Source of the DNA: Paecilomyces variotii
Lineage: Eukaryota
Reading direction: 5' to 3' (one strand)
NCBI GenBank assembly: GCA_004022145.1
Contig: RCNU01000009.1
Length of the DNA stretch: 64,000 nucleotides
Part shown: one piece after another, positions 34,274 to 60,312 of the stretch
How positions within the stretch are numbered: position 1 is the stretch's first letter
Layout of the letters: each line of letters begins with the position of its first letter
Notes under the pieces: generated by a model
The model's input: the letters and a program-made list of their open reading frames with translations, nothing else
Databases searched by the model: none
What the model was told of the DNA's origin: nothing
Translations under genes and position numbers: made by a program

Positions 34274-34313
34274 CAAGATGTATGTATGGCATTGTATGCA
34301 AGATGTATGTATG
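34274..34313 (+). repeat. 15-bp direct repeat CAAGATGTATGTATG x2
   Basis: Identical copies at 34274-34288 and 34299-34313 in the ABC/NRPS divergent intergenic region. Confidence 0.8.
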
Positions 34314-36005: not shown

Positions 36006-39000
36006 ATGGAAGCGTACCATCGAAAGCCCTGCTGTATCGGCAACGATGACGAAGTACAACCGAGCCAATGCTATTTTCCAAGCTTCGGTGGTTTGACTGG
36101 AGGCAACAAGCGCCAGATGTTGACGGCAGTAGATCTTCAACATGCACAGCGACTTCTGGTCTCAGGAAACTCGGATAGTATACCGCAGACTTTAAGAGTA
36201 GCTTGGGCCTTGGTTCTCAGATGCTATACGGGCTCTGACAACGTTTGTTTTGGCTATGAGGAAACCGCTCATTTGTTGGACAGAGAGGGTTCAAGCAGAT
36301 CTCAGAAAGGAGGCACATGTACGACCTGGTTCAAACTTGAAGATGATATGACTCTATCTACGGTGGTAGAGTATACGAAAGGACTTGTTTCCACCGAACA
36401 GTCAAATCATCCTGCGGAAAGAGACGCCTGTCTTCCAGCAGAGAATACAGCATATAATACTGCATTCCTGTTGAACAATCACACTGAATCTCCCTGTTAC
36501 AGTACAAAGTGTACTATACTTGACTCAGCGTCTGTTGCCAACGGCTCAGAAAAGGTAAGAGGAGAAACTTGTTCTAAAGGCCCCAGTTATTGATTCTCTC
36601 CAGACTAGGGTCCGAATCATTGTAGATCTCTTCTCAGAGGGACCTAAAATCTTTCTTGAATGGAGCTATCCCGATATACCTCCGGAGTTCGCAGCTAATA
36701 TCGCCCACGTTTTCGACCAAGTAGTGGGTAATATTCTTCTGAATTCCCAGAGTACGATCGGCCAAATGGACCTTTGCACCGATCGTGACATGCGACAGAT
36801 ACTGAACTGGAATTCTGAATGCCCTCAAGAGGTCGATAGATGTGTGCATCATCTGATTTATGATAAAGTGCTTGTACACCCTGGAAAAGAAGCCGTGTGT
36901 TCTTGGGATGGCAGCTTTACATATGGCGAGCTCTACGAATTGGCTGTCAAAGTAGCACGTCAGCTTGTGAAACTGGGAGTCCAACAAGAAACTTCGGTAG
37001 CTCTTTGCTTTGAAAAATCCGTAAGTGTAGAGCTCATTTCTTGAAACCAAGTTCCAACTGACATAGAACGATCAGAGATGGAACATCGTGGCAATGATAG
37101 GCGTCTTGATAGCTGGAGGAACCTTTGTTTCCCTCGACGCTTCTCATCCACCATCGCGTCTGCAGCAAATGGTCGAAACCGCTGGAGCACAAGTTATCCT
37201 TTGTTCTCGCAAGAATGTTACAATTGCTCGCGCTCTTGCTGACTGTGTCCTTTCTTTGGACAACGATTGGGCTGAGAGACTGCCAAGCAGTTCAGATGAA
37301 GCGAACTTCTCGCCTTCTGTCACACCCAAAAATGCCGCTTACATCATATTTACTTCAGGGTCTACAGGAGCACCGAAGGTAAAGAATATTGGGAGTTCTA
37401 TGATTGGAAGTATGGAATGCTGATGTGATGATAATCCTAGGCTACTGTCGTCGAGCATCGAGCCTATTGTTCTAGTGCCCATCTACATGGACCTAGAATG
37501 TTAATAGGAGAAGATTCGCGCGTCCTACAGTTCGCCTCTCATACCTTCGATTCCAGTTTGGTGGAGTCTTTGACTACGTTGATGCAAGGAGGATGTGTCT
37601 GCATACCGAATGAGGAAGCGCGTATAAACGATATCGCATCATCCATCAATAGAATGCGTGTCAACCATGCGCTCCTCACACCTTCCTACATTGACTTCGT
37701 GGATGCAGGAGCCGTTCCCGGACTCAAATCACTTGTCTTGATGGGAGAACCTATGTCTCCGGAACATGTGGCAACTTGGTCCAATATCAACCTCGTCAAT
37801 GGATATGGACCTACGGAGAGCTCTGTTGTCGCAGTGGTAAACTCAAAAGTCACAGCCCAGACAGACTGCAAAGATATAGGACGTCCAGTTGGTGTCCGCT
37901 GCTGGATTGTAGATCCACATAATCATGATAAGTTGATGCCTGTCGGCTGCACTGGGGAACTATTATTGGAAGGGCCGACGTTGGCTCGCTGTTATAATGA
38001 TCCACAGAAGACAGCGGAGTCATTCATTTTTGACCCTAAATGGTCAAGAGATCATGCCGAGGAACCTCGACACAGACGGTTTTATAAAACTGGTGACCTA
38101 GTAAGGTACAACTCGACAAACGGGTCACTTAGTTTTGTTGGACGCAAGGATACGCAAATCAAGGTGCACGGCCAGAGAGTTGAGCTCAGGGAAATTGAGC
38201 ATCACATCTCCTCCAGTCGATACACCAAACATGGACTAGTTCTCTTCCCGGATGCTGGATACTGCAAAGGAAAGATTGTAGCCGTGCTGTCTTTGAGAGA
38301 TAACCTTCTGGAGGCGTCGGAGCCAAAGCCAGCGCCGTTGAGTCCGGTAAAGGGAAAGAACTACAATGTTTATGCCACGCAAATTAACCAAGACTTGGCT
38401 AAGAGACTGCCACTTTACATGGTCCCCTCTATGTGGCTGTGCGTCGGATCTGTCCCTCTTCTGCCCTCTGGCAAGCTCGATAGAAAGAGAGTTAGAAATT
38501 GGTTGGAAAGTATGACAGAAGAGCTCTACTGCCAATACACACAGGCTGTTATAGAACCAAGCACAAGTGATATGGAAATCGCAAACACTATGGAACGGGA
38601 AATGCTTTCCATATGGAGCAGCGTGCTTGGTGTCTCTCCAAGTCGAATAGGTTTACATCGCAGCTTTTTGAGTTTGGGCGGGGATTCGATTAGTGCGATG
38701 AGTTGCATGAATCAGTGCAAGAGGAAAGACATCGGCATCACAGTTCATGACGTGTTGCAAAGCAAGTCTATCAAAGAGTTAGCAAGTCGCGCGAAAGTGG
38801 TCCAGCGTTTTACGTACGATGAAGCTGTCGACGAACCGTTTGACCTGTCGCCGATACAAAAGCTGCACTTCCAAGTTCGTGGTGAAAAGGAAGGACATTT
38901 TAACCAAAGCTTTTTCCTTCGCGCTACACGAAAGATAGACGCCAGTGACCTGCGTCGTTCAGTCGAGGTCATAATTCTGCGCCACTCCATGCTCCGCGCC

Positions 39001-42000
39001 CGCTTTGGTAGAACTGGAACCAATAAAGAGTGGCAACAGCGCATAACAAAAGACGTACATACGTCCTATCGATTCCGTGTGCACAACATATGCAATATTA
39101 GCGAAACTAAACGTGCGATAGCAGATAGCCAAGCATGCTTGGATATTGCCCTTGGACCCATGCTGGCATTCGACCTTTTCAACATAGAAGGTCAAAGTCA
39201 GCTAGTATCTATGATTGGCCATCATCTAGTAATAGATCTGGTTTCATGGCGCGTCATTCTGGAAGAGTTGGAAGAGTCATTGACAAACCCTGACAGTTTC
39301 TCACTTCCAGAGCTTTCGTTACCCTTTCAAACATGGTGTCGTTTACAACGCGATCGGTGCAGTATACAGGCTGCAGAACAGTACTTTCCGCCAGAGGATA
39401 TCCCTTCCGTGGACTTCCAATATTGGGGAATGGAAAATCACCCAAATCTATACGGAGATGTTATATCGGAAGGATTCGAAATCGACTCAACCACAACGTC
39501 TCTGCTGCTGACAGAATGCCACAAAGCCTTACGAACAGAGTTTATAGACATATTGATCGCCACTCTTTTGCACACTTTCTGCGTGGTTTTCCCAGATCAC
39601 CCGGTTCCGGCGATCTATAACGAAAGCCATGGCCGAGAACCATGGGACATATCTATTGACGTCTCGCGGACCATCGGATGGTTCACAACTCTCTATCCCA
39701 TTGCTGTCAAAGTGAAGCCTTCTGATAGTATTATACGGACATTGATACAGGTTAAAGACCTGCGTCGACGGGTGCCGGATAGCGGCCGCACATACTTCGC
39801 AGCTCATATGCTCAATAGCCAAAAGTCCGAAAAGCACAGCCACATATATCCAATGGAGATGATTTTTAACTACCTTGGGCAGTATCAGCAACTTGAAAGA
39901 AAGGACTCCTTATTTCAGGCAGTCGATAATATGGCTGGGGAGGCTCGGGGGGCTGGAGGAGCAGCGGATGTGGGAGAGACAACGCCCCGTTTTGGACTTT
40001 TCGAAATATCTGCAGTTGTGTTGCGGAACAAATTACGGTTCTCCTTCACCTTCAATCGGAATTCGAAACACCAAGATAGGGTGCTTGATTGGATCTCTCA
40101 GACTCAGCTGGCGATCTGCCAAGTTTCAACAGAATTGGCTTCAATGAAGCCGCGCCTTACGCTCAGCGATTTCCCGCTCCTAAATTTAGATTACCCACAG
40201 CTCGAGACCATGGTCCTGGAAAAGTTGCCCGGCATTGGCGTCACGTCTATGGAGAACATTGAAGAGGCCTATCCTTGCTCATCGACGCAGAAAGGTATCA
40301 TTTTCAGTCAAATGAGGAACACTTCGTTCTACAACGTCAGTTGCACATATGCAGTGAAAGCTAGAGAAGGCGAAGTGATCGATATCAGCAGACTCTGCAA
40401 TGCATGGAGAAGAGTCATTGAACGGCACGGAATACTTCGAACTGTCTTTGTGGAGAACATGACGGATAAAGATGTTTATTCTCAGATTGTGCTTAGGCAA
40501 TTTGTACCTGAGATTTGTCAATTTGAATGCAGTGAAGACAGCGAGGTGCTGCAGACATTGGACAGACAACATAATGTGGACTACAGTCGCCACAGGCCAG
40601 CACACCGATTCACGATATGTCGAACTACTGTAGGAGGGTTATATTTCAGGCTTGAAATGAGTCATGCGATCATGGATGGGGAGTCAATCTCGATTATTTT
40701 ACGCGATCTGGCCCAGGCATATGAAGGGGCACTTGGCGTCGAGTCTGTACCACGATTCAGCAGCTTCATCCGTTATTTACGTGCAAGACCACTAAACCGT
40801 GGTATTGAATACTGGTCCTCGTACTTGATGGATATGGAACCTTGTCATTTCCCGACTTTGAATGATGGCGAAGATTCAGACCACAAGCTATGCACATTAC
40901 GATTACCATTCAGTAATTTCTCAGCGCTGCAGTCAGTATGCGCAAAAAATGGCTTAACCATGTCCAACGTCTTCCACGCCGCATGGAGTTTGACACTCCG
41001 CTGCTATTGTGGTTCGGACGATGTTTGTTTTGGATACCTCTCATCGGGGAGAGATGCCCCTGTTGATGGTATAGAAGAGATGGTCGGGCCAATTATCAAT
41101 ATTTTACCCTGTCGAGTCAAAATCGCTGCTCATGTCTCTCTGAACGTGATCATGACTGATATTCAGAAAGACTACTCCGAATGTATCCCCTACAGACATA
41201 CAGCACTCGCAGATATCCAGCATACCCTGAAACTCTCAGATACTTCGCTTTTCAATACTTGCGTATCCTATCGCAAGCTCACATCGAAAGTCACTGCCGA
41301 GGGACATTCTCTATTTACACAGCTTGGGGAAACACAAGATCCGACAGAATATCAATTGTCAGTAAATATTGAAGCCTCCGATGACGATCTCGCTATTACC
41401 ATGGACTACTGGAACGACGCTATAGCGCATGAACAAGCCACGAACATAGCCGGAACCTTCTTGCGGTCGCTGCAAAACATCCTTGAACATCCAACAGAGG
41501 AGGTAGGGATGCTAGATACGATTAGTGACGACAATAAACGGCAAATAGCAATCTGGAATAACAGCTTGCCTGCCAGCGTCAGTTGTTGTATTCACGAGGT
41601 GATCGAGGAGCAAGTCAAAAAGCGACCAGACTCTGAAGCTATATGTGCCTGGGACGGATCTTTCACGTATGCAGAGCTTAGTGACTTATCATCGAAATTA
41701 GCAGATCATCTCATTCAGCTCGGACTCACTGCCGAGACCTTCGTACCTTTATGCTTCGACAAATCGGCATGGATGATAATTTCAATGCTGGCAGTGTTGA
41801 AGGCAGGGGCTTGTTGTGTCCCTCTAGATGCGACATACCCTAAGTCATCTCTACATGCTAGGATAGTCGATATCGGTGCCCGGGTCATTCTCGCAGCCCC
41901 AGAATGGACACACCTATTTGACCGTATTGTTCCCGACATCGTCACCGTGAGCAAACACTTCATGGAAAGCTTGCCAGCGAATAGTGCAAGGTCATATACA

Positions 42001-45000
42001 ATAGCGAGACCTTCGAACGCTGCATTTGTCATCTTCACATCTGGTAGCACAGGAAAACCCAAGGGCGTCGTCCTTGAGCACAGAGCGTTCATCACTAGTG
42101 CTATTAGCCATGGGTCTGCACTCGGAGTCAGCGACTCTACAAGATTCTTGCAGTTCGCTGGTTATACTTTCGATCTCAGCCTCGAAGAAATATTCACGAC
42201 CCTTGTGCACGGAGGTTGTGTCTGCGTGCCGTCAGATAGTGATCGACTGGGTAATCTTGCTACAGCTATCAATACGCTGAAAGCAAACTTTGTCGATCTT
42301 ACACCTACAGTGGCGAGTTTACTCTGTCCTAGCGATGTCCCAGGCATAAAGGCAATTGCGGTTGGGGGCGAACCCTTGACAAATGATGTAAGGGAGTTAT
42401 GGGGAAAGCACGTACCTCTATACAACGTGTACGGCCCGTCCGAATGTTCAGTAAATTGCACTGTGAACCCCAATGCCGGCGAATCGAAGGAAATCAACAA
42501 TATTGGTCGCAGCATTGGAAGTATATCTTGGGTAGTGGATCCGAGAGACCATGACCTTCTAGTTCCTATAGGTTGCGTTGGTGAGTTACTGGTCGAAGGT
42601 CCAATTCTCGCCCGTGGTTATCTCAACGATGAAGAGAAGACGAAAGAATCGTTCATCGAAAACCCCAAATGGAGACCAATGTTCCAATGCAATGGCGGTA
42701 CTTATAGGGAACGTGAGGATAGTGAAAACCCTAGATGGAGAATGTACAAAACTGGCGATCTGGTCCGATACAATTCCGATGGGTCGCTGGTCTACTTGGG
42801 ACGAAAGGATTCCCAAGTAAAACTCAATGGGCGGCGTATAGAGCTTGGCGAGATCGAATATCACATCAAGAGTGGCCTTCCTACTAGAGGCCAAGCGGCG
42901 GTTGACTTGATCACAGTCAGAAATGAGAAGCTGGACGGAAATGTTCTGGTAGCTTTTGTGCTACTAGAAAATATCGACGCAAATCACATAGACGATGAGC
43001 AATGTTTATTGCCGATGTCTAATATGTTCAGATCTACTATGTCCTCTTTGGAGGCTGCTCTATCTGGCTCGTTACCACGTTCGATGATCCCACAGCTATG
43101 GATACCAGTTGCAAGTATGCCACTCACTTCATCTGGCAAACTAAATCGTCGAAAACTAAGAGGGTTGGTCCAAAGCCTTTCGGCGAAAGATATATCTTCT
43201 TACAGGATGGGAGAGAAAAGCGGCAGACGCCCGTCAACACCGGCTGAGAACCTGCTCCAGATGCTGTGGGCTTCGGTCCTAGGTGTGGAAGCTAGAAATA
43301 TCGGCGCTGATGATACGTTCTTTATTCACGGAGGAGACTCAGTTGGAGCTATTCGACTTGCCTCTACTGCGAGGGAAGTTGGTTTGACACTCACCGTAGC
43401 GAATATCTTCCAGACACCAACACTCTCGGAAATGGCGAAAAATGTCACTTCGTCGTTGGGTAATTTGAGCAATGATCCAACATTTACCTACACGTCCTTT
43501 TCCCTCATACCCGAAGGAATTTCTGCCAGCAATCTGAAGAAAGAGATAGCTACACTCTGTAAAGTTGGCGTCGAATTTCTAGAGGATATATACCCGTGTA
43601 CACCGATCCAGGAAGGACTCGTCGCGCTTACGGAAGGACAGCCAGAAGCATACATAACGAGGAATATTTATCGCTTGCCCAAGAGTATCGACATCGAAAG
43701 GTTTAAGCGTTCTTGGGAGGCCGCCTGGCAATCACAACCCATCCTTCGGACAAGAGTGGTGCACACGAGGACTAACGGATTTTTCCAAACAGTGATCAAA
43801 CAGCCAATGAATTGGAGGTCATTAGGGCAGCTCGAGGATCTACCGGGGATTTGCGCCTCATTGCCGTTTACAAATGGGGGTGTTCTTAGTGAGTACACCA
43901 TTATTGGCCGAGATAAGGAAACTCGATACTTCGTGTGGACCATTCACCATGCACTTTACGATGGCTGGAGCATACCCATACTTCTCGATACGGTTGAAAG
44001 ACTGTACAATAGCACCCACGATTCAACGCAGACAGTAGCGGCCAATTACACTGCGTTCATAGGATTTCTATCTGCTATTGATGAACAGGAATCCGACAAT
44101 TTCTGGCGCTCACGTCTGGAAAGCCCTGCGTCTGTACAATTTCCCCGTCTCATTGACCAGTCTTACCGAGTCGAAGCAAATGATACCCTACAACGTACTT
44201 CGAGGATATTGAGGCCTTCATTACCTGATATAACTGTGTCTTCATTAGTGAGGGCGGCTTGGGCCCTTACGCTTTCGGCCTTCTCAGGATCCGATGATGT
44301 AGTGTTCGGGGAAATCCTGACAGGCCGCGATGTTCCCGTCAAAGGCATCACTGAAATTATTGGTCCTACCATGGCGATTGTTCCTACCAGAGTGAAGATT
44401 GGCAAGGACACGAGTGTTAAGTGCTTTTTAGAACTTGTCCAGAAGCAACTGACAGAAACACTTCCGTATCAATTCGCAGGTTTGCACAATATCAAGCGAC
44501 TTAGTGAGGATGCATTAATATCTTGTGATTTTCAGAATATACTCACAATCGAACATGAAAGAGAAGGGCCGTCTGAAGAGATGTGGAATCTCCTGCAGAA
44601 AGAATCTTTACAGTCTCGGTTTTTCACGTATCCTCTCAATGTTACGTGTAAAGTTGGTTATGAGAAGCTGGAGATCCTTGCGAATTACGACAAACATGTT
44701 ATACCGGCAGTACAAACAGAGAGGCTATTCTCCCAACTCGAGACGTTTCTCGAGAAGCTGTGCTCGAGTGACAATCAAGAAAAGAAAATCGGCCAACTGG
44801 AACTTCTTGGACACGAAGACCTCATGACCATACAAAAATGGAACTCGAAACAGCTAAAGATTGTTGACAGGTGCATTCACGACATGGTACATGACAATGC
44901 AATATCTCAACCTGAAGCACCAGCAGTATGCTCATGGGACGTCACATTGACCTATGAAGAACTCGATAAAATGTCAACATTGCTTGCACGTTATATATCT

Positions 45001-48000
45001 GAATATAAGCCACGGCAAGGAAATGCCTGGTTTGTTCCAATGTGCTTAAATCCGTCAGGCGTCTCTATCGTTGCTATTTTGGGGATACTGAAGGCTGGTG
45101 CGGCTTTTGTACCTTTGGATCCGAAGCATCCGACTTCGCGGTTGAGAGCTATAGTCAAAGATCTCACATCTGAAATTATTATATGCTCAGAGGGGTATGA
45201 AAATTTGTGTAGGGGGTTTTCAAATAGAGTTCTTCCTATCAACATTGCACTGCTGAAGGACCAATCTCTTTCTGAGTTTGAAACTCCCCTCTGCACACCC
45301 AATGACCCGGCATATATAATGTTCACCTCAGGAACCACGGGAAATCCCAAAGGGATAATAAGTACAGCACACTATTTCATATATGTAATTGTGTACTGGC
45401 AACGCTGACACATCACAGTTGAACATGCCGGTTTTTGCTCTGGATCTCGTAAGCAGGCAGCAGCTTCGCTGATATCACACGACTCCAGAGTGTTGCAATT
45501 TGCCTCTTACACATTTGATGCAAGCCTCATTGAGATACTGACAACTCTCCTTGCTGGTGGATGTGTCTGTGTGCCGGATGAGAATACTCGGCTTAACGCC
45601 CTTGGAGACGCTATCAACAAAATGGAAGTGACTACAGCCATTCTCACCCCATCAGTCGCCCAATTACTTAGACCTTCGGAACTTCCAGGTCTGCGGACTC
45701 TAGTACTTGTCGGTGAGCCAATGACCCAGAATCACATCTCGACCTGGGCTCAGAGTGTTGTTCTCGTCAATGGGTATGGACCCAGCGAATGTTCCGTGGC
45801 GGCAGCTTTCAAGACAGGAATGACAACAAAGACAGACCCGAAAAACCTTGGACATCCCGTAGACACTTGCTGGATTGTGGACCCAAACAATCACCATAGG
45901 CTTATGCCGGTTGGTTGTACAGGCGAATTGGTTATCGAGGGGCCGACTGTTGGCAGAGGGTATCTCAATAACGAAGCCAAAACAGATGAATCATTCATCC
46001 GCAACCCAGGCTGGCCTGTAACAGGGATATACCCTTTTACAAATCATGAAAGGCGTGTGTATAAGACTGGTGATCTGGTCAAGTATGCTCCTGATTGTTC
46101 TGGTGAGATCTTATACGTTGGCCGCAAAGATAACCAAGCCAAACTCCACGGACAGCGCATTGAACTTGAGGAAGTGGAATATTACCTCAGAAAAGAAAAT
46201 CTAGTTCACCAGGCCATTGTGGCACTACCGAAACTAGGTCCTTGTGCCGGAAAATTAGTAGCTGCTTTGGCTCTGAAAGACCTTACGAGCTCTTCCTCTT
46301 TAGAAGAGTTTACAGTGGTTGACGGAAGGTCTGTTTCAACCAACATCGCAAATATCAGGAGACGACTTGAGTCTGTTGTCCCTCTGTACATGATACCATC
46401 CCGCTGGATAGTGTTGCGAAGACTTCCATTGATGCCCTCTGGGAAGTTGGATAGGAACGCAATCACGCAGTTTCTCGGGAGGTTGAGCGAGGACACTTAT
46501 GGACGAATGGCCTCTTACGAACTTGACGACACCGACGAATCCCGGAAGGCCAATGCTACAGAATACCGTCTTCAAGAAATATGGAGCGAGGTTCTGAATC
46601 TTCCGATAGGGAAAATAGGATTGAATCGATCGTTTATTCGTCTTGTGAGTGCAGGCAGCCCTTCCATCGCAAAATGGAGACTAATGCATTCTCAGGGTGG
46701 GGACAGTATGTCAGCAATGCAGGTAATGTCCAAATGCCGGTCAGAGAATCTAGCAGTCACTGTTAGAGATATCATGTCCAGCCGATCTATCACAGAACTC
46801 GCCCTCTTGGCCACTGTACCGGAAGAAGTTCGATATGATGATGAAGATGAACAGGAATTTGACTTGTCCCCGATACAAAAACTCTATTTCCTATACGTGA
46901 ATGGAAAAGATACTCGTTTCAACCAGAGTATAATGCTGCAAGTCAAACAGTCTGCAAGCCCACATCCAGTTGAAGCGGCATTTGACATACTCGTGAGGCG
47001 GCATCCAATGCTACGTGCTCGGTTTTCCAGATCTGGTGACAATATCTGGAGACAGCATATTCACCATACAGTGGACGGATCATACCATCTATCTATTTTC
47101 AAAGACAAGAGGGATTCAGAGATCGAGCGAATCATGGAATCCATGCAGAAGAGTCTCAGCATCACCGAAGGCCCACTCATAGCTGCTGCTTTGTTCCAGA
47201 CTAGGTCTGATGATGATATCCTCTTCATGACTGCTCATCATCTTGTGGTGGATATAGTATCATGGCGTATCATCATTGAAGATCTAGAGAACCTTTTACA
47301 ATCTCTACCAATAACAGTCCCACCCTCTGTCTCATTTAGGACGTGGTGCCGACTTCAGACAGAAAAAGCAAGAACGCAAAAATCAGGATTTCCGCTCCCA
47401 CTCGAGGGTGATATTCCAATTGCTGACTTTTCTTACTGGGGTATGCAAGAGCACGTCAATCTTTACAGGGATATTACAACTGAGGACATTAAACTCGATT
47501 ATCACATCAGTCAAAAGCTATTGACGTTCTGCCGTGTAGACGGAGAGACAGAAATTGTCAATGTGATACTAGCGGCACTGCTACTGTCATTTGCTGCTAC
47601 ATTCACGGATCGCGAGAGACCCCCTGCGATCTATAACGAGGGACATGGGCGTGAAACTTGGGACTCAAGCATTGATCCTTGGCATACTGTTGGATGGTTT
47701 ACGACGCTCACTCCTGTGCATCTGCCAAGGCAGAAGCATTCCCTTGAAGGTAAGCAAATTCCATCACAACCTATGCCCGAAACCCTTTTTAATGGAAGAT
47801 TTCACGAGTCGCTAAGTGACTGACACAACTTGCATCCAGACGGCGACTTTGCCAAATGCGTTCGTTGGATCAAGGACTTGCGCAACCGAACACCTCATCA
47901 AGGCCGTCAATACTTTGCCCGTCGATTCCTGACAAGTGATGGCGATTACTATAAAAGTCATTGGCCAATGGAAATTATATTCAACTACCTAGGGCAGTTC

Positions 48001-51000: not shown

Positions 51001-54000
51001 GTTGACTTAGTAGTCGGCGAAAAGAGAACATCAGCAAAGAAACTCGCTGTCTTTTTCACAGTCCCAAACGAACCCAAATATGCTTACTCTCCGCCTGGGC
51101 ATGATAAATCAAATCACTCGGAGGAACTTCTGCTACTAATGACTGCGCCCATCCACTCACTAGCGCGGGAGTTAAAAGATTCATTGACGGCAATATTACC
51201 TGCATACATGGTTCCAAAGCTATTCTTTCCTATCCATAGTTTGCCGTGGGCCACTTCTGGAAAGCTCGACCGCCTCAGACTCCGAAAGGCTGCGGAGATG
51301 CTCTCGAGGGAAGAGATGAAGCCCTATACGCTAATCAAAGACGCCAAAGGACGCAGGACTGGAACAAAAGCGGAGGATTCACTGCTGGCCTTATGGGAGA
51401 AAGTATTGAGTCTTCCTCAAGGTTCAATTCATGCCGATAGCAATTTTTTTGAACTCGGTGGTGATTCATTAGCAGCAATTCGTCTCATTGGAGAGGCGCG
51501 GTCACAACGGATCTTACTTCGAGCAGTCGACATCTTCCGCTATCCTCTGTTGACCGATATGGCTACTCACTGTGAGCCTTTAAATGATGCGCTTACACCC
51601 AGGCCAAAACCTTTCAGCTTATTGCAGACAGCGACTTCCATAGAACATACGGTCCGCGAAGCAGCCACCGAGTGTCAAATTGACAAAGATTCAGTGTCTG
51701 ATGTTTACCCATGCAGTCCGCTACAGGAAGGTTTAATTGCACTTTCTATTAAGAAAGTCGGTGTTTACGTTGCTCAACTCACGTTTCGACTTGACGAGGC
51801 CACAAATCTTGACCGCTTCAAAGCTGCTTGGCAACAGGCTGTCAATGAATATGATATGCTGCGAACTCGAATAATACATACGTCTTCTGAAGGAATCCTT
51901 CAAGTCGTGACCAAACATAATTCTATCTGCTGGTACGCTGCCGAGAGCTTGCAGAATGTTGAAAGGCAACCCATCGTCATGACACAACATAATGGAGCGC
52001 TGCCATTACAATTTACACTAATAACAGCGCCTCAATCCGCGAGACGTTATTTCGTGTTGTCTATACACCATGCTCTCTATGATGGTTGGAGTTTGAGTCT
52101 TATCTTCCGCAGAGTGGAGGACATATACTTTGACAGAGCGTCAAGGCCAGCAGAGTCTTCTTACGCCAAGTTCATCCGCTATCTCCTTCACAGAGATACA
52201 TCAGACTCAGATCAATTCTGGACGTCCTACCTTGCGAATTCCTCCCCTACCCACTTCCCACTGGCTGGGAGCTTCCCATCAAGCGAAACGTCACCTATGC
52301 AGTCCATAAGGGGCGACAAAGAGTTTTCGTACGCTGCTCTTAGGAAGGATATCACTGTCCCAGAACTTGTCCGGGCAGCCTGGGCTATTTCAGTTTCATC
52401 ACATACAGGCTCGAATGATGTCTGCTTTGGGGAAACTTTGACTGGTCGGAACAGTGAAATAGCTGGAGCATCTGAGATAATTGGTCCTGTGCTGACCACT
52501 GTTCCCACTCGGATTGTTCTAGATCGACAGTGGTCGATATCACAGTATCTGCAAGAGGTGCACAAAATAACGACAGATATGATACCACACCAGCACTCGG
52601 GGCTGCAATGTATCCGACGCCTCAGTGAAGACACGTCTGTTGCATGTGACTTCCAGAACCTGTTGATCACACAGACTTCCAGGGAGAATTTAGATGAACG
52701 CCTATGGGCATTTGAATCATCGGAGTCTAACCAAGGCTTTCTAACATATCCCTTAGTTGTCGAATGCAATATCACTGGTGCTGGGATAGCGATCAGTATT
52801 CATTACAACGAGACTATGTTATCCCGGTGGCAGGCAGAACGGCTGCTTCATCAACTTGGATTCCTTCTGACGCAGCTCAGCGAATTATCCACGGATAATT
52901 CATCGAAACTCAGTGATCTAAAATTGTTAAGCTCAGAGGACATCTACCAGATAGGCAATTGGAACCATCTGCACCCACAGCCGATCGATAAATGCATACA
53001 CGAATTGTTCGAGGAAAGGCACATTATACAGCCAACAGCTCTGGCAATCTGTGCATGGGACGGAGAGCTCACGTATCAAGGATTAGCCAGGTATGCTTCT
53101 CGGTTTGCATCGTATCTCATTACGCTCGGCGTTGGGCCCGAAGTCTTCGTTCCAGTGTGCATAGGCAGGTCAGTATGGACGACTGTTATACTTATGGGTG
53201 TGTTGATGGCTGGTGGTGCTTTTGTGCCATTGGACCCAGGGCATCCAATAAGACGACATATAGAGATACTGGAAGAGTTGGAAGCGGAGATTATGATATG
53301 CTCGCCTCTTTACAGTTCTCGATACAGGAAACTCGTCAAACGCTGTATTGAAGTGGACGGTTCCACCATCACTTCTCACTCAAATCCAAACACGAGCGTA
53401 ACTCACCAAGCGAGAGTGTGTGGATCGAACGTCGCATACGTTATCTTCACTTCGGGGACAACCGGCCGCGCAAAGGGCATCATAGTCGAACATAGAGCAT
53501 TCGCTAGCAGCTCTGTAGCGTTCGCGCCTGTATTGTCCATAAATTATACTTCTCGTGTTCTTCAGTTTGCATCTCTCAGTTTTGATGCTGCGATTATGGA
53601 GATATTTACAACACTGATCTCCGGTGGATGCATATGCGTTCCCAATGAAGAGCAACGCCTTACGGACATTTCAGGAGCTATCCAGGATCTCCGCGTCTCG
53701 TGGGCTCTCCTTACGCCCTCAGTTGCAAAAATCATTGACCCAGCAACAGTGCCTTGTTTGAAGGTCCTGGTATGTGGCGGGGAAGCCATGACTTCTGATG
53801 TGATTACGAGATGGGGAGACTTTGTGAAGCTCATAAATGCTTATGGGCCCACCGAAGCGGCTGTTGTCTCAACAGTCAATGCGACTGTAACTCCTGAGTC
53901 TAGCTCGCACTGTATCGGCCGCGGTATTGCTTCGACTACAACGTGGATTCTAAGCATTAGCGACCAAGATCGCCTAGCGCCTCTAGGGGCCATTGGTGAA

Positions 54001-57000
54001 CTTGCTCTCTCAGGCCCGGCATTGGCTAGGGGTTACCTTCGAGATCCAGCCACAACAGCTGTATCATTTATTGAGAACTCTTCATGGACACAGAGTCTAG
54101 CGGGCAATCTGAAATCACCGGGGCGGATATATAAAACAGGTGATCTCGTGAGATATAATGCGGATGGCTCACTTGAATACATTGGACGTAAGGACAATCA
54201 AGTCAAAGTCCATGGCCAACGAATAGATCTTGGAGAAATCGAGTGCCGTATCATCTCCGATCAACGAGTTCATCAGGCCATTGTCCTATTGCCAAAGAAG
54301 GGTCATTGCAGGGGTCGAATAGTTGTGGTACTGACGCTCGACGGGTTTGACTCAACTACACAAGCAATCGCAGGTAGTTCATGTGAACTGCTGAGGAAAA
54401 CATGCCTGAAGAGAGCGCTGCCCCAAATAGAGGGACTAAGAAGCTTTCTCGGAGAGCGACTACCTCCATACATGCTTCCTCACGTATGGGTAGCCCTCGA
54501 AAATATGCCGATGCTTGTATCCGGAAAGCTTGATAGGAAAGGCGTCTCGAAGTTCATCGAAGACATGTCCGAAGAAACGTACAACTTGATAACAAACACG
54601 AACCTCAAAGAATCGAGCAAGGTGATAACGAGAAATGAGGAACTGCTTGGACATATCTGTGCTCAAGTGCTCAATCTACCCTCCGGGAACGTCGATTTGA
54701 ATAAGTCTTTCTTGAACTTAGGTGAGTTCCAGACCATCGGAATTGATTCAGGCACTTATTGATCTCCTTACTATATAGGTGGTGATAGTATATCAGCAAT
54801 GTCTGTTATGGCTCAGGCACGCAAGCAAAGCCTCCGTCTAACACTCTATTCAATCTTACAATGCGAATCCATCTCCAAACTTGCTTTGAGTGTGGGATCC
54901 AGCACTTTAGTTTCTCAACAAGAGAAGACAGGCGACGGCTTCGATTTATCTCCAATTCAGACCCTTTACACCCGATCAGCACGAAACTTCAATGGAGAAA
55001 GTCGATTTAACCAAAGTCTCACCCTTCGGCTGGCTCATCCCGTAGAGCCGCATACCCTTGAACATGCTATCAGAGCCGTGATCAAGCGCCATTCCATGTT
55101 ACGAGCGCGCTTCAGCATCGGAGTCGACGGCATTTGGCAACAGACGGTTACGGATGTAGGACCTCATTAATACGTTGTCCCCTGTTGAGAATCTAAAGGT
55201 TGACATCTTTTACAGGAAGTTGATCCATCCTATCGTTACCGATCGCACCATATAGATGCCACACAGAAGATGCAACCACTGATCGCCAGTAGTCAAGAAT
55301 GTCTGAACATATTTGACGGTCCGATATTTGCCGCTGATCTTTTCCTGGGTCCCGAAACTCAGGTCCTCTTCATGGTTGCCAGCCATCTTTGCGTTGACAT
55401 GGTATCTTGGCGTATTATACTCCAAGACATTCAAGACTTTATGGAGACTGCATCCTTGCCAGCTGACGTACCGCTGCCTTTCCAGTCTTGGTCGAGGTTA
55501 TGTTCAGAGCACAACAAGGACGTGCAATTGCCTCTTCCGTTCAACATCGGTCAGACTCCCATTGACTACTGGGGTATGGAAAGGACACCGAACATCTACG
55601 CCGATGCAGTGGTTGAATGCTTTTCTTTGAACGAGGAGATTACGAAACACGCCTTGGAAGAATGCCACAGAGCGTTTCGTACAGAGCCTATAGATTTGTT
55701 TCTGTCGACAATCATCTATTCCTTTCGCAGTGTCTTTTCTGATCGAGGACATCCGATTTTGTTCAATGAAGGTCACGGACGCGAGTCGTGGGACCCAGAA
55801 ATAGATCCTTCTGGGACTGTAGGTTGGTTTACCACTATTTGCCCTTTAAAAGTCCTTTCTGAGTCAGGTAAGTATAAAAAAGGCCCTTCGTGTTTTCCTA
55901 GCTAATTTCAAAAATAGGCGACAAATTGGATATCTTGAAGAAAGTCAAGGATACTAGACGAAAGTTCTCCGCCAGTGTTAATGCATACCTCGCGCATTAT
56001 CTGTCGTCTTCAGAAAAGGGCTCTAGCGTTGAAAGATCTTACGTCCCGATGGAGATATTGTTCAACTATCTCGGACGTTTCCAACAGCTGGAGCAAAAAG
56101 ACTCGTTGTTCCAACATGCAGAATCACGACTCAGTGAGTCTGCTACTACTGACGACGTCGGTCCTTCGACAGTACGACTGGCTCTGTTCGAGATAACCGC
56201 GATCGTAATCGAAGGACGACTGCAATTCTCCTTCACGTATAACAGAAGGATGAAGCATACCCGGGAAATCTGCCGATGGATATCTGAGTTTCAGAAATCG
56301 TTGGAGCAAACCGTTATCCAGCTGAGAAAATGTCCTCCTGAGCCGACTTTAAGTGACTACCCCCTATTGCCACTTACCTATCCAAATCTTCAAACCCTCG
56401 TCAAGCACACCTTCCCCAAGATAGGCGTACAGAATCCAGAGGATATTGAAGACATTTATCCTTGCTCTCCCGTGCAGGAAGGTATCCTGCTAAGTCAGAT
56501 CCGGGATAAAGAGACATACTTTTTCCATGTCATCTTCGAACTGAGAGACAAGCGACGCAATCCCAGCGTGGCATGTCAAAGGCTAAAAGAGGCATGGCAA
56601 AAAATAACCCGGCGACACCCAGCCTTGAGAACTATCTTGGTTGACAGCGTCCACAAAGGCGGGACTTTCGATCAGATAGTCATGAGATCAGTGAGAGAAA
56701 ACATCAAAATCTTCGCTTGTGAGGATTTCGGAGCCGTCGACAAGCTGAGATCCACAAAGCTGCATATGGAAAATTCCGAAAAAGGGCATCGTCTTCCGCA
56801 TCTATTGACAATATGCACGACGACAACGGGGAGGATCTTTGTCAAGATGGAAATAAACCATGCAGTTATAGATGGTGCATCTGTTCCAATCCTCCTTAGA
56901 GACTTCGCGCTTGCATATACTGGCAAGCTACCTGAGGGACGTGGACCGCTAATCAGTGATTATATCCGTTACATTCTGGATCAGCCACTAGATGTGAATA

Positions 57001-60000
57001 TGTCGTTTTGGAAAGAGAAGCTGCGAGGATTGCAACCGTCAAACTTACCAATACTCACCCAGAATCCATCGCAGGGACACAGATTAGCTACCATGGAAAT
57101 GCGATTCGAGGCATTCCGTGAACTACAGGGATTCTGCGACCGTACCGGCATCACACTTGCCAGCGTTATGCAAGCCGCCTGGGCTATTGTTTTACAAGCC
57201 TATACACATTCGGAAGAAGTGTGTTTCGGGTATCTATCTTCGGGGCGCGATGCGCCCTTAGACGGGATTCAAGACGCAGTCGGTCCATTTATCAATATGC
57301 TATGTTGCAGGGTGAAGCTTGAATCTTCTCAGTGCCTTAGCGACATCTCTCGAAATATCCAGAATGACTTCATCGATAGTATTTCGCATCAGCATTGTTC
57401 GCTAGCACAAGTCCAGCACGAACTTGGATTAGCAGGAAAAGCTCTATTCAACACTGCCGTCTCGATCCAGAATCACTCACTGCCGGATGACTCTCAGGGA
57501 GAGCTGATAACTGATGTGAAGTCCACACATGATCCTAACGAGGTATGCTGACACCATTTTAACAACGGTATTATCATGTCTGCTAATGAAACGCGAACAG
57601 TACGCTGTCACAGTGAATATAGAAACTTCCCGAGGACAGGAAGGGGTCTTATTCACCTATTGGGAAGATTTCGTATCCAACAAGGAAGCTTCACGACTAG
57701 TTTCGAGAATGACAGCCATTCTTACGGAGTTCATTAAAAACCCAGAAACGAGAATATCCGACTTGAGAATCGACGCCACAGAGAAAGCTGAACATGTGGA
57801 TGAAAATCCTCCGCACGAAGAACCAGTGTCTCCGAACGAGAAAGACACTGGCAATCGGTTCGCCGACCTAAGTGACCTTGCCTTACAACAGCTCGTCGAT
57901 AAGCGTGTTCGGGAGACCATCAAACAGCTACTCAAGGACGGCACAATTCCTGGTGCTGCCGGGCAAAAGACACCTAACGAGAACATACAGTATCCAGAAA
58001 CCCAGTCTCTCCAAGATATTCCTCCAACAGAAGAGCCAAAATCCTCCCCGGAATTGGACAAGGTTGATCCCCATCCTCCATTTACTGAAGCCTCCCGGGA
58101 AACGCCTTATGAGCTAGAGAGCACACTTCTCAGTCTCTGGTGCTCGCTACTAGACTTGACGACAGACTCGATAAACAAAGACGACAGTTTCTTCGACCTA
58201 GGAGGAGACAGTATTCTTGCAATGAGACTAGTCGGTGCCGCGCGCGAGCAAGGCCTGACTCTGACAGTAGCCGATGTATTCCGCAACCCCATCTTTGAAG
58301 ATATGCTCGGAATCATGCGTGTCACAGACATCATTAGTATCTCAGATCAGAATGAAAAGAAGACCTCCGAAATAATGGACGACCTCCTCACCTCTTCAGC
58401 CAGCAAGGAACTCGTCCAAAGATTCTCTCTTCTAGAAGCTGTGGATCTTAACGAGGCCTTTCTCCAAAGCACCATATGTCCTAAAATCGGCGTCTTCAGG
58501 GGCGGTATCGCTGATGTGTTTCCCGTAACGGATTTCCAGGCACTGGCGATTGCAGGGGCGCATTTGAAGTCTCGATGGATGCTGAACTATTTCTCTCTCG
58601 AGGGCCGAGGCGTTTTGGATCTTAAACGTCTCAAAGAAAGTTGTTTCCGCGTGGTCGATGCCTTTGACATCCTACGAACCGTCTTCGTCTGTACTGGAGG
58701 CCGATTCGTTCAGGTCATTCTTCGGAGATTGCGTCCTGAATTCTCAGTCTACGAGACAGACAGTACTCTCGAGGAGTTTACGACGACGCTACGCCGTCAA
58801 GACAGCGAGACCACACTCAAACAAGGGGAGCCATTTGTGCGGTTCATCGTCATCAGAGAGAAAGCGAGTGATCGACACCGTTTCTTGATTCGATTGTCCC
58901 ACGCGCAGTATGATGGGATATCCCTTCCTAGGATACTTGCCGCCACTCGATCCGGATACGAAGGTGGTCCGATACCTTCGACGAGATCATTCGCAAACTA
59001 TGTACGTGCATCGACAGAAACGATCACATCAACCCATTACGAACACTGGAAGTCTTTTCTGAAAGATAGCAAAATGACCGAGATCATCCCTCGTCAGACC
59101 CCGAACTATAACAGATCGTCAGTTACAGCTGTTAATCTGACGAAGAAAGTGCAAATCCAATCAATAGCCCATGGCAGCATTACAACAGCAACAGTCATCA
59201 AGTCCTCGTGGGCTCTGACTTTGGCGAAAATCTCAGCACAACCGGACGTTGTCTTCGGCCACACCATCAGCGGTCGCAATGTCTCTGTTCCCGGCGTAGA
59301 GACGATTGTAGGCCCATGTCTGAACATTGTTCCCGTTAGGGTTCCATTCCGGAATGGCTGGTCGGGTCTTGATTTACTCCGCTACGTCCAAGACCAGCAA
59401 GTGGCCCATATGCCTTACGAGGCACTTGGCTTCAGGGAAATCATCAGGCGCTGTACTGATTGGCCAGACTGGACGTACTTCACCAGCACAGTCCAACACC
59501 AGAATATAGATAACCGCAAAGAACTACAGATGGGAGACATCAACTACACCGTGACTGGTTATGGAGCCGATCAGGACTTTTCTGACTTTGCAATCGTCTC
59601 CACGCCCTTGGACACCGGGGTCGTGGAGATCACACTAAGCTTCTCAATCAACAAGGACAACAATAACAACATAACCACATCCTTCGCCGAACACGTCCTA
59701 GACATGCTCTGTACAACAGCCCATCTCATATCCAGCCATCCAACAACAATTCTCCCCACTCCAACCACTCTCTCAGACACTCCATCTCTAATCATCAACA
59801 ATCAACCATCCCCATCTCCATCTCCATCAGAAAAAGAAAAAGAAGAAACCTTCCTATCCAACCACCTAAAGGGACTCAAAAGATCCGAAATCATCGCTCT
59901 ATCAGATATCCTCACTCGCATATGGCGACAAGTTCTAACAGATCCTGAAACCAATCGCTGTCCATCCATTCAGCCAGATTGCTCTTTCTTCGATCTAGGT

Positions 60001-60312
60001 GGAGACATCGTATCTCTCGCGCAGGTTGTGTGGCTATTAGATGAAGAAGGGTTTCAGATTCAGATTGAAAGTTTGATTGAGCATCCTACGCTCGTGGGGC
60101 AGATGGTTGTGCTGAATATGTGTCGTGAAGAAGGTAAAAGGGATAAAGAAGGGAAAAGCATGCCTGTTGTAAGAAACAAGGAGGTTGTAGCGGCAGCTAC
60201 GAGAGCAGAGAGGAGGGGAGAAAATAGGAAGAAGATGTCTTGGGTTAGGGTTGTGAGGCTTGCTAAGAAGGTCATACGTCGAGATGGAAGGGTTCAAATG
60301 GTTGAAGCATAA
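36006..60312 (+). CDS. Multimodular NRPS, Pes1/HcpA/NPS4-like: (half-C)-A-T-E-C-A-T-C-A-T-E-C-A-T-C-A-T-E-C-T-C-T*
   Basis: 11 exons: 36006-36554, 36604-37020, 37076-37378, 37441-45361, 45419-46644, 46696-47749, 47840-54721, 54779-55155, 55216-55867, 55918-57542, 57601-60312; total 23,718 nt, divisible by 3 (~7,905 aa). Five A domains (FTSGxTG, YGPxE, YxTGDL, SGKLxR). GGDS carriers near 38677, 43330, 46696, 51457, 54779 and 58201; GGDI near 59998. Three E domains (xHLxxDxVSW, ExHGRE, GWFTT). C domains SHAIMDG, HHALYDG, SHAICDG, HHALYDG, NHAVIDG and terminal SHAQYDG. Confidence 0.96.

What the first reader, a model, noticed from the sequence alone, without database searches (positions are those of the whole stretch)
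36006..60312. Five-A, six-T NRPS predicting a cyclic hexapeptide with alternating D/L residues
Seen: E domains follow T1, T3 and T5 only. C domains after E carry SHA/NHA-xxDG, those after L modules carry HHALYDGWS. The last C has the SHAQYDG motif of fungal terminal cyclising domains, and there is no TE or reductase. Knowledge: Penicillium HcpA (fungisporins, tetrapeptides) and A. fumigatus Pes1 have four A domains and a C-T-C-T end; Fusarium NRPS4 makes the D/L-alternating hexapeptide fusahexin. Inference: a fusahexin-type architecture at a Eurotiales pes1-like locus, giving cyclo(D-X1, L-X2, D-X3, L-X4, D-X5, L-X6), a product I cannot match to a known compound. Alternating D/L rings can stack into beta-sheet assemblies, which may explain a surface or membrane role (speculative). 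Best candidate for an undescribed system here.
Basis: partly seen in the sequence, partly recalled or inferred. Interest (0 to 1): 0.82.

Follow-up and report, generated by a model that had tools for sequence, protein, structure and literature searches.

The report
Paecilomyces five-module water-repellent-peptide synthetase gene
This is an intact, transcribed gene of the mould Paecilomyces variotii for a giant peptide-making enzyme of the known Pes1/HcpA/NRPS4 family, which probably makes a still unidentified ring of six alternating D and L amino acids that helps keep the fungal surface water-repellent.

Summary
Window 36006-60312 (+) is one NRPS gene: 11 exons, 7,905 aa. Seven of its ten introns are confirmed by spliced RNA contigs.

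- **Layout:** half-C, A1-T1-E, C-A2-T2, C-A3-T3-E, C-A4-T4, C-A5-T5-E, C-T6, a TqaA-like terminal cyclising C, then a serine-less T-like domain. There is no TE or reductase.
- **Organism:** Paecilomyces variotii (Eurotiales).
- **Not an undescribed system.** It is the orthologue of Pes1, HcpA and NRPS4. A 2026 preprint names this family WARP synthetases: 3-6 modules, an E domain in every other module, an adjacent ABC exporter, and a role in surface hydrophobicity. That exporter lies intact and divergent at 28428-33663.
- **Architecture is shared.** The same five-A layout occurs in 5 of 150 representative relatives, from several fungal classes. It matches the published description of five-module NRPS4, which makes fusahexin.
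- **Evolution.** A-domain phylogeny and half-C scars suggest the four-A Aspergillus Pes1 form is this layout with internal deletions.
- **Product.** A D/L-alternating cyclic hexapeptide is the likeliest product, inferred by analogy only. No P. variotii product is in print in what I searched.

Verdict: a new member of a known kind, of modest interest.

The parts
28428..33663 (-). ABCC-type (TMD0) ABC transporter gene, transcribed divergently from the NRPS. It is the family's usual exporter partner.
   Evidence: Pfam finds ABC_tran, ABC_membrane and TMD0_ABC in the ORF pieces. P. variotii protein P0407 (1473 aa) maps from aa 1 to 1473 onto 33663..28428, interrupted by introns only.
33664..36005 (.). 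Intergenic region of 2.3 kb between the divergent transporter and NRPS genes. Presumed to be a shared promoter region.
   Evidence: Position only. No C, T or A domain signal was found here. Promoter function is an inference.
36006..60312 (+). NRPS coding region: 11 exons, 7,905 aa. Introns: 36555-36603, 37021-37075, 37379-37440, 45362-45418, 46645-46695, 47750-47839, 54722-54778, 55156-55215, 55868-55917, 57543-57600.
   Evidence: Gene model. The last seven introns match joints in RNA contigs of runs X3 and/or X7. The first three rest on motif continuity and on alignment to Aspergillus Pes1.
36048..36792 (+). N-terminal remnant: the C-terminal half of a C domain (aa 15-246, spanning intron 1).
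   Evidence: It matches positions 190-428 of my 428-position C model. No N-terminal half is found upstream. The same remnant stands at the start of the Aspergillus, Podospora and Stictis relatives.
36859..40260 (+). Module 1: A1 (36859-37998), T1 (38599-38787), E1 (38797-40260).
   Evidence: A1 core motifs are present. E1 carries HHLVIDLVSW, SHGRE and FNYLG and has E-domain best hits in the PDB.
40261..43440 (+). Module 2: C2 (40261-41538, SHAIMDG), A2 (41605-42624), T2 (43252-43440).
   Evidence: The best PDB matches of C2 are C domains, including the one that follows the E domain in bacitracin synthase 3 (chain 9rde, residues 478-909).
43582..48363 (+). Module 3: C3 (43582-44823, HHALYDGWS), A3 (44890-45966), T3 (46567-46806, holding intron 46645-46695), E2 (46816-48363).
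   Evidence: T3 reads SFIRL|GGDS once the intron is removed.
48364..51567 (+). Module 4: C4 (48364-49641, SHAICDG), A4 (49711-50748), T4 (51379-51567).
51697..56447 (+). Module 5: C5 (51697-52944, HHALYDGWS), A5 (53011-54039), T5 (54643-54888), E3 (54898-56447, SHLCVDMVSW).
   Evidence: The E domain at the same position in A. fumigatus Pes1 reads NHLCVDMVSW.
56448..58311 (+). Module 6, which has no A domain: C6 (56448-57789, NHAVIDG), T6 (58123-58311, GGDS).
   Evidence: The NH motif at this position is conserved in 12 of the 13 family proteins checked; Coccidioides, Chaetomium and F. poae are N-terminally incomplete.
58510..59787 (+). Terminal condensation-like cyclising domain (CT type, SHAQYDG).
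   Evidence: The best PDB match is the TqaA domain at E 1.4e-40; the next family scores 1e-19. The motif aligns with SHSQWDG of TqaA.
59908..60309 (+). Serine-less T-like domain (FFDLGGDIVSLAQV, 59908-60099) followed by a basic C-terminal tail.
   Evidence: Weak match to my T model, score 11.7. GGDI stands where GGDS is expected. None of the 21 family tails that hold this region has the serine.
60925..62264 (-). Downstream MFS transporter gene. Only ORF pieces were examined and the gene limits were not worked out.
   Evidence: Pfam MFS_1 at E 7.5e-23 in piece 61767-62264. A review lists an MFS gene in the F. graminearum NRPS4 cluster.

Best explanation
This is the Paecilomyces variotii orthologue of the Pes1/HcpA/NRPS4 ('WARP') synthetases. 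It forms a cluster with a divergently transcribed ABCC exporter.

Shown here:
- The gene is intact, spliced and transcribed.
- The layout is (half-C)-A1-T1-E-C-A2-T2-C-A3-T3-E-C-A4-T4-C-A5-T5-E-C-T6-CT-(serine-less T).
- All five A domains, all three E domains and six carrier domains keep their core motifs.

Inferred by analogy with NRPS4/fusahexin and Pes1/HcpA/fungisporins:
- A1 to A5 load T1 to T5.
- The E domains invert residues 1, 3 and 5.
- The carrier T6, which has no A domain of its own, receives a sixth L residue. The most likely donor is A5, so residues 5 and 6 would be the same amino acid in D and L form.
- The TqaA-like terminal domain closes the ring head to tail.
- The ABC transporter exports the peptide, or a family of related peptides, to the hyphal or conidial surface, where it adds to water repellence.

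The predicted product is cyclo(D-X1-L-X2-D-X3-L-X4-D-X5-L-X6), made mostly of hydrophobic residues whose identity is not resolved.
For: **Gene model and RNA.** Searches give the model. All 7 introns within the laid stretch 40313-60312 match GT..AG joints in metatranscriptome contigs of X3 and X7, which come from two studies.

**Domains and motifs.**

**Identity of the E and CT domains by solved relatives.**

**Organism.** A neighbouring PUF6-like exon is 100% identical to a P. variotii protein. The ABC transporter exon is 98% identical to P. variotii P0407, which maps whole onto the window.

**Orthology.** The best named relatives are A. fumigatus NRPS1 (Pes1) at 47% and F. poae NRPS4 at 41%. 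In a tree of 60 A domains, A1, A4 and A5 group with the first, third and fourth A domains of Aspergillus Pes1, with supports of 0.33, 0.94 and 0.96. A2 groups with the second Pes1 A domain inside a clade with support 1.0.

**Same layout elsewhere.** It occurs in 5 of the 150 listed representatives, plus one N-terminally truncated protein. Those that carry names are from Podospora, Myriangium, Mytilinidion and a Stictis MAG.

**Family rules in print.** The preprint states an alternating E domain, an upstream ABC transporter and 3-6 modules. It says five-module NRPS4 with a C-T-C end gives the hexapeptide cyclo(D-Ala-L-Leu-D-allo-Thr-L-Pro-D-Leu-L-Leu), and that Pes1 gives cyclo(D-Tyr-L-Tyr-D-Val-L-Val).

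**Unusual motifs are position-specific family traits.** SH or NH in the C domains after E (NH at the A-less sixth module) is shared by Fusarium and Aspergillus relatives. SH in E3 is shared only by A. stella-maris, A. heterothallicus and P. lecythidis; F. poae has HH there, and A. fumigatus Pes1 has NH.
Against: - No chemistry: neither ring size, nor composition, nor cyclisation is shown.
- The preprint reports that one WARP synthetase gives many products, that lengths can depart from the module count, and that linear forms occur.
- Which A domain loads T6 is unknown. The HcpA paper proposes loading in trans by the A domain that corresponds to A2 here.
- The 10-residue codes (DSVLVMGVVK, DLEDAGVVNK, DAIIVVGVAK, DAMFLGAVLK, DAMLVGAVVK) do not name substrates reliably.
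- The RNA contigs are only 95-99% like the window. They therefore come from a related strain in food fermentations, and contigs cannot give expression levels.
- Introns 1-3 are not covered by RNA.
- E3 has SH in place of HH.
Confidence: 0.72

Rival explanations
1. The synthetase is of the same family, but the main product is not a hexapeptide. It could be a cyclic pentapeptide if C6-T6 is skipped. It could be a mixture of ring sizes (hexa- and heptapeptides) and linear forms if modules are used iteratively or product is hydrolysed.
For: The preprint reports that hexamodular Apiospora NRPS4 makes heptapeptides as well as hexapeptides and linear forms, and proposes 'one NRPS, many compounds'. 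C6 has NH in place of HH.
Against: C6 and T6 are intact and T6 keeps GGDS. The NH motif of C6 is conserved in 12 of 13 relatives, including Fusarium NRPS4 and Aspergillus Pes1 relatives. The characterised members of those groups use this module, giving six residues from five A domains and four residues from three or four A domains.
Confidence: 0.2
2. The product is a hexapeptide, but T6 is loaded in trans by A2 rather than by A5, as the HcpA paper proposed for the orphan A domain that is the counterpart of A2.
For: The HcpA model assigns its orphan 'A4' domain to the C4-PCP4 module that lacks an A domain. That orphan is the positional orthologue of A2 here. Fusahexin has Leu at positions 2, 5 and 6, so either source fits.
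Against: In three Aspergillus Pes1 proteins the orphan A domain keeps only 0, 1 and 0 of the 5 core motifs I looked for, and it sits on long branches. Yet A. fumigatus still makes a tetrapeptide. In both fungisporins and fusahexin the last two residues are the same amino acid in D and L form. That fits loading by the last A domain.
Confidence: 0.15
3. The gene is a decaying or silent relic with no product.
For: The N-terminal half-C domain and the serine-less last T domain look degenerate. E3 and the C domains after E lack the first His.
Against: The reading frame of 7,905 codons is open once the 10 introns are removed. Correctly spliced RNA contigs come from two studies. The 'degenerate' features are conserved across the whole family, including its characterised members. 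Differences between strains are in-frame within exons, and indels cluster in introns.
Confidence: 0.03

Closest known systems
Fusarium graminearum NRPS4 (fusahexin synthetase)
   Same: It is described as five modules plus a C-terminal C-T-C, with an E domain in every other module, and its cluster holds ABC and MFS transporters. Its product is a D/L-alternating cyclic hexapeptide. The window gene has this layout. It also shares the position-specific motifs of a partial F. poae NRPS4.
   Different: Identity to F. poae NRPS4 is only about 41%. The host belongs to another class, Eurotiomycetes rather than Sordariomycetes. The A3 and A4 codes differ from those of F. poae, so a Thr/Pro oxazine is not implied. 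No glycoside hydrolase gene was seen beside the NRPS. I did not have the F. graminearum sequence itself.
Aspergillus fumigatus Pes1 and Penicillium chrysogenum HcpA (fungisporin synthetases)
   Same: These are the closest named relatives (47% identity) and belong to the same order. They share the N-terminal half-C remnant, the C-T-C end with a serine-less T-like domain, and the adjacent ABC transporter. A1, A4 and A5 are orthologous to their first, third and fourth A domains.
   Different: They have four A domains in the 'non-canonical' order C-A-A-T and make tetrapeptides. In Aspergillus Pes1 the region between the two adjacent A domains holds the C-terminal subdomain of A2, the C-terminal half of C3 and the C-terminal half of C4. 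That pattern reads as this five-A layout after internal deletions. P. variotii has complete modules 2 and 3.
Apiospora arundinis NRPS4 (apiosporin synthetase)
   Same: It is a WARP synthetase with alternating E domains and an ABC transporter, and its knockout is wettable.
   Different: It has six modules, starts with T-C-A-T-E, and makes heptapeptides with a Lys-derived imidazolidinone. I made no sequence comparison with it.
TqaA terminal condensation-like (CT) domain, PDB 5ejd/5egf/5dij
   Same: It is the best solved relative of the last C domain (E 1.4e-40), and its SHSQWDG motif aligns with SHAQYDG.
   Different: TqaA is a trimodular synthetase from another pathway. The alignment covers about 330 residues at low identity. 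In the window gene the domain is followed by an extra serine-less T-like domain.

Membership tests
WARP synthetase family (Pes1/HcpA/NRPS4 orthologues) | Multimodular NRPS with an epimerisation domain in every other module | tested here: met
   E domains follow T1, T3 and T5 only. Their best PDB matches are E domains.
WARP synthetase family (Pes1/HcpA/NRPS4 orthologues) | ABC transporter gene next to, and upstream of, the NRPS gene | tested here: met
   An intact ABCC gene lies at 28428-33663 on the minus strand, divergent from the NRPS and 2.3 kb away. The rule is stated in the preprint.
WARP synthetase family (Pes1/HcpA/NRPS4 orthologues) | C-terminal C-T without an A domain, followed by a terminal C domain; no TE or reductase | tested here: met
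   C6-T6-CT plus a serine-less T-like domain. Pfam finds no other domain.
WARP synthetase family (Pes1/HcpA/NRPS4 orthologues) | Sequence orthology to named members | tested here: met
   The best named hits are Pes1 and NRPS4. The A-domain tree shows positional orthology, with supports from 0.82 to 1.0, except for the A1 clade at 0.33.
WARP synthetase family (Pes1/HcpA/NRPS4 orthologues) | Product is a cyclic, hydrophobic, D/L-alternating peptide; loss of the gene gives wettable mycelium | not testable with these tools
   This needs a knockout, LC-MS/MS, Marfey analysis and a droplet test.
NRPS4 (fusahexin) architecture type | Five A domains, three E domains and six serine-bearing T domains in the order A-T-E-C-A-T-C-A-T-E-C-A-T-C-A-T-E-C-T-C | tested here: met
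   It agrees with the published description of NRPS4.
NRPS4 (fusahexin) architecture type | Substrates Ala, Leu, Thr, Pro, Leu(, Leu), giving fusahexin itself | tested here: inconclusive
   The codes were extracted, but the F. graminearum sequence was not in hand. The A3 and A4 codes differ from those of partial F. poae NRPS4. Fungal codes predict substrates poorly.
HcpA/Pes1 'non-canonical' four-A type | Two adjacent A domains (C-A-A-T) and four A domains in all | tested here: not met
   P. variotii has complete C-A2-T2 and C-A3-T3-E modules. The Aspergillus proteins show A-(half C)-(half C)-A.
Fungal terminal cyclising CT domain | Last C-type domain after a T domain, with SHxxxDG in place of HHxxxDG and closest to characterised CT domains | tested here: met
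   SHAQYDG. TqaA scores E 1.4e-40 against 1e-19 for ordinary C domains, and the motif is aligned. That SHxxxDG marks CT domains in general is recalled, not tested here.
Fungal terminal cyclising CT domain | Catalyses head-to-tail macrocyclisation | not testable with these tools
   This needs an enzyme assay or product analysis.

The most novel reading that the evidence does not exclude
P. variotii makes an undescribed D/L-alternating cyclohexapeptide WARP. Its first-position binding pocket (DSVLVMGVVK) differs from the aromatic-type pocket of Pes1/HcpA A1.

The locus also preserves the five-A state from which the 'non-canonical' four-A Aspergillus/Penicillium synthetases arose. That would have taken two internal deletions: T2 with the N-terminal half of C3, and A3-T3-E2 with the N-terminal half of C4.

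If so, the orphan A domain of Pes1 is a dead relic, and the carrier that lacks an A domain is loaded by the last A domain throughout the family. This would revise the published HcpA model of loading in trans.
Probability: 0.4. Interest if true: 0.5.

Novelty: new member of a known kind. Interest (0 to 1): 0.35.

Why it matters
P. variotii is a widespread food-spoilage mould, found in fermentations and occasionally as an opportunist, and it forms very heat-resistant conidia. If its surface peptide is a hexapeptide WARP, that would add a Eurotiales example between the Aspergillus/Penicillium tetrapeptides and the Fusarium hexapeptide.

Because the gene is an unbroken five-module version of Pes1/HcpA, it also offers a clean system for two questions the broken versions obscure. 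The first is who loads the carrier that has no A domain. The second is what the conserved serine-less last T-like domain and the basic tail do.

None of this is surprising to a specialist. Variation in module number (3-6) and the surface role are already described.

Tried and rejected
- **Whole genome:** none is held for this window.
- **Word-index homologue search:** it reached only proteins of up to 5,000 aa, so full-length relatives could not be listed with names that way. An attempt to query the long frame 37441-55155 by reference failed because the introns carry three stops. I did not pursue it.
- **Census of relatives:** it therefore rests on the best 150 of 47,225 representative hits to the last exon. 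Architectures were called with HMMs trained on the window's own domains. The census is incomplete, and I cannot say how many Eurotiales carry the five-A form.
- **Missing half of the N-terminal C domain:** not found within 2.5 kb upstream.
- **Further strong in-frame intron candidate (48633-48695):** RNA contig X3 runs through it without a joint.
- **Runs X2 and X6:** they gave contigs that keep the introns. These are DNA carry-over or unspliced RNA and say nothing about splicing.
- **PDB comparison:** it did not separate the C domains after E from those after L modules. Only the identity matrix within the protein did: 37-38% within a class against 27-30% between classes.
- **Substrate prediction from the 10-residue codes:** not decisive.
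- **Earlier notes of this scan:** none on this genome or topic.
- **Literature:** searches for a P. variotii or Byssochlamys cyclic peptide or fungisporin link found nothing relevant. The P. variotii genome paper has no passage on this gene among the hits for my five search terms. The fusahexin paper (J Nat Prod 2021) is not in the library. I know it only from citations.
Full report
**What is in the sequence**

Between 36006 and 60312 the + strand carries a chain of long open frames. Several are the same frame interrupted by single stops. The stops lie in short GT..AG introns with branch-point-like sequences.

My first model had nine introns and gave 7,922 aa. Laying metatranscriptome contigs on 40313-60312 then showed joints at all six predicted introns in that stretch. 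It also showed a seventh joint that I had missed.

The seventh is an in-frame, stop-free 51-nt intron, GTGAGT..CTAAT..TCTCAG, at 46645-46695. It lies inside T3, directly before the GGDS motif. Removing it turns a split T-domain match into a clean one.

The final model has 10 introns, 11 exons and 7,905 aa, with no internal stop. A strict scan found only one further in-frame candidate, 48633-48695, and an RNA contig runs through it unspliced.

Introns 1-3 were not covered by RNA. Introns 2 and 3 restore A-domain core motifs. Intron 1 gives a gap-free alignment with Aspergillus Pes1 N-termini.

The spliced contigs come from runs X3 and X7, which belong to two studies, and are 95-99% like the window. 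They therefore show that a related strain transcribes and splices this gene in food fermentations. They say nothing about expression level. Contigs of X2 and X6 keep the introns.

**Domains**

Pfam finds only AMP-binding, Condensation and PP-binding above its cut-offs. Using HMMs built from the gene's own domains, the order is:

- the C-terminal half of a C domain (aa 15-246);
- A1-T1-E1;
- C2-A2-T2;
- C3-A3-T3-E2;
- C4-A4-T4;
- C5-A5-T5-E3;
- C6-T6;
- a terminal C domain;
- a weak T-like match.

The evidence for each domain class is as follows.

- **T domains.** Six carry GGDS. The last T-like domain reads GGDI, so it has no serine to carry the phosphopantetheine arm.
- **E domains.** They have HHLVIDLVSW, HHLVVDIVSW and SHLCVDMVSW, plus (S/G)HGRE and FNYLG. 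E1's best solved relatives are the E domains of PvdL, bacitracin synthase 3, GrsA and TycA.
- **C domains after an E domain.** They read SHAIMDG, SHAICDG and NHAVIDG and are 37% identical to one another.
- **C domains after an L module.** They read HHALYDGWS and are 38% identical to each other. Identity between the two C classes is 27-30%.
- **Terminal C domain.** It reads SHAQYDG. Its best solved relative, by twenty orders of magnitude, is the cyclising domain of TqaA, whose SHSQWDG motif aligns with it.
- **A domains.** All five keep their core motifs, with small variants: A8 in A3 and A4, and RAKG for xPKG in A5.

Three additions were missed: the N-terminal half-C domain, the serine-less seventh T-like domain and the hidden intron.

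**Organism and neighbourhood**

A PUF6-like exon at 14077-15828 (-) is 100% identical to a Paecilomyces variotii protein. It is 98-99% identical to the same protein in two other strains, while other Eurotiales reach 72-80%.

The neighbours are ATP10, a family X DNA polymerase, PUF6, Rad51 and Nup120. Next comes an ABCC transporter on the minus strand, then the NRPS, then an MFS transporter. The P. variotii transporter protein P0407 (1,473 aa) maps from its first to its last residue onto 33663..28428. The exporter gene is therefore intact and divergent from the NRPS.

**What is known about the family**

A 2026 preprint, which I read in full in three parts, groups nrps4 (Fusarium, Cochliobolus, Apiospora), nrps2 (Alternaria), hcpA (Penicillium) and pes1 (A. 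fumigatus) as WARP genes. It states that:

- the cluster is an NRPS with an upstream ABC transporter;
- the NRPS has 3-6 modules, with an E domain in every other module;
- the products are cyclic, hydrophobic and D/L-alternating;
- knockouts are wettable;
- the peptides sit on the hyphal surface;
- Ghadiri-type stacking of the rings is conceivable.

It describes five-module NRPS4 with a C-T-C end as making the hexapeptide fusahexin, and Pes1 as making cyclo(D-Tyr-L-Tyr-D-Val-L-Val).

A review, of which I saw passages, lists ABC and MFS transporter genes in the NRPS4 cluster. The HcpA paper (passages and section 15) gives the order A1-PCP-E-C-A4-A2-PCP-C-A3-PCP-E-C-PCP-C-PCP. Bushley and Turgeon 2010 (passages) already noted two to six modules, and module gain and loss, in this group.

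The window's gene fits every structural rule of the family. It matches the published description of NRPS4.

**Relatives**

Among proteins of 4,047-5,000 aa, the best named hits are partial A. fumigatus NRPS1 (47% identity) and F. poae NRPS4 (41%).

A search of 1.84 billion representatives with the last exon returned 150 listed proteins. By my HMMs, 5 of these 150 have the full A-T-E-C-A-T-C-A-T-E-C-A-T-C-A-T-E-C-T-C layout: P0122, P0124, P0126, P0127 and P0149. One more, P0123, has it without the first A domain.

Those with names are from Podospora australis, Myriangium duriaei and Mytilinidion resinicola, and P0124's cluster holds a Stictis MAG protein. The closest representative is a fragment from Paecilomyces lecythidis, at 61% identity. 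Three-A and four-A forms also occur.

**Evolution**

I built a tree of 60 A domains from 16 proteins, leaving out A matches that cover 200 or fewer model positions. It groups the domains by position:

- A1 groups with the first A domain of Aspergillus Pes1 (support 0.33).
- A2 groups with the second, orphan Pes1 A domain, inside a clade with support 1.0.
- A4 groups with the third Pes1 A domain (0.94).
- A5 groups with the fourth (0.96).
- A3 has partners in Podospora and Mytilinidion (0.82) but none in Aspergillus.

In A. stella-maris and A. fumigatus Pes1, the stretch between the orphan A domain and the next A domain matches three things in order: the C-terminal subdomain of A2, the C-terminal half of C3, and the C-terminal half of C4. 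A. heterothallicus keeps only the last of these.

The four-A 'non-canonical' form therefore reads as the five-A form after internal deletions. The orphan A domain keeps 0, 1 and 0 of the five core motifs I looked for in three Aspergillus species. This is my inference. I found no paper stating it.

**Family traits that look like defects**

- SH or NH in the C domains after E is conserved position by position across classes.
- The first His of the last E domain is Asn in A. fumigatus Pes1, whose product still has a D-Val.
- The serine-less last T-like domain is found in all 21 of the 22 family tails that reach that region, and none of them has the serine.
- The N-terminal half-C domain is shared with Aspergillus, Podospora and Stictis.

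These features therefore do not argue for decay.

**Mechanism**

The domain order, the intact motifs, the splicing and the exporter are shown. The rest is inferred by analogy:

- D residues at positions 1, 3 and 5.
- A sixth L residue on T6, most likely loaded by A5. This fits the fact that the last two residues of both fusahexin and the fungisporins are one amino acid in D and L form.
- Head-to-tail closure by the CT domain.
- Export, and a role at the surface.

The 10-residue codes are DSVLVMGVVK, DLEDAGVVNK, DAIIVVGVAK, DAMFLGAVLK and DAMLVGAVVK. My extraction gives DAMFAGGIFK for the fourth A. fumigatus A domain, against the published DAMFVGGIFK (A. nidulans) and DAMFVGGVFK (P. chrysogenum) for the corresponding HcpA A3 domain. 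The codes point to hydrophobic residues, but they do not name them.

**Verdict**

The reading is correct and careful, but this is not a new system. It is an uncharacterised member of a described family, with an architecture already known from Fusarium and present in several fungal classes. Its product is unknown in the literature that I could search.

Noticed in passing
window 46645-46695 and 54722-54778: T3 holds an in-frame, stop-free 51-nt intron directly before GGDS, which ORF reading cannot detect. T5 has an intron one codon away from the same position, and T1 has none. This suggests that the T-E modules are old duplicates that kept an intron.
   Followed up: partly
window 59908-60309, and the tails of the relatives: After the terminal cyclising domain, every family member examined has a T-like domain with GGD(I/V/L) in place of GGDS. 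A conserved basic tail of the type SW..k...LA+K..+R follows. Its function is unknown; it could be a docking or membrane-contact element.
   Followed up: partly
proteins P0132, P0011 and P0129 (Aspergillus Pes1 relatives), second A domain: The orphan A domain keeps 0, 1 and 0 of the five core motifs I searched for, and sits on long branches. This is at odds with the published idea that it loads the A-less module in trans.
   Followed up: partly
proteins P0132 and P0011, aa about 2070-2800: Two half-C-domain scars lie between the adjacent A domains of Pes1: the C-terminal halves of the counterparts of C3 and C4. A. heterothallicus keeps only one.
   Followed up: yes
window 45389-45393, 46651-46679, 47810, 56276-56279, 59651-59654: Differences between the window and the fermentation strains: small indels cluster in introns. 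The exonic indels are in-frame, of 6 nt and of 3 or 6 nt.
   Followed up: no
window 1-28000: Housekeeping genes lie upstream of the cluster: ATP10 (304-1541, -), a family X DNA polymerase (2956-4125, +), PUF6-like (14077-15828, -), Rad51 (22535-23359, +) and Nup120 (23851-27912, +). Several long ORFs between 4.7 and 12.8 kb have no Pfam match.
   Followed up: no
window 8001-10000: G+C drops to 0.40, against about 0.47-0.58 on either side. I did not look into this.
   Followed up: no
window 34712-35092: A 126-aa ORF on the + strand lies in the intergenic region between the transporter and the NRPS. It has no Pfam match and is probably not a gene.
   Followed up: no
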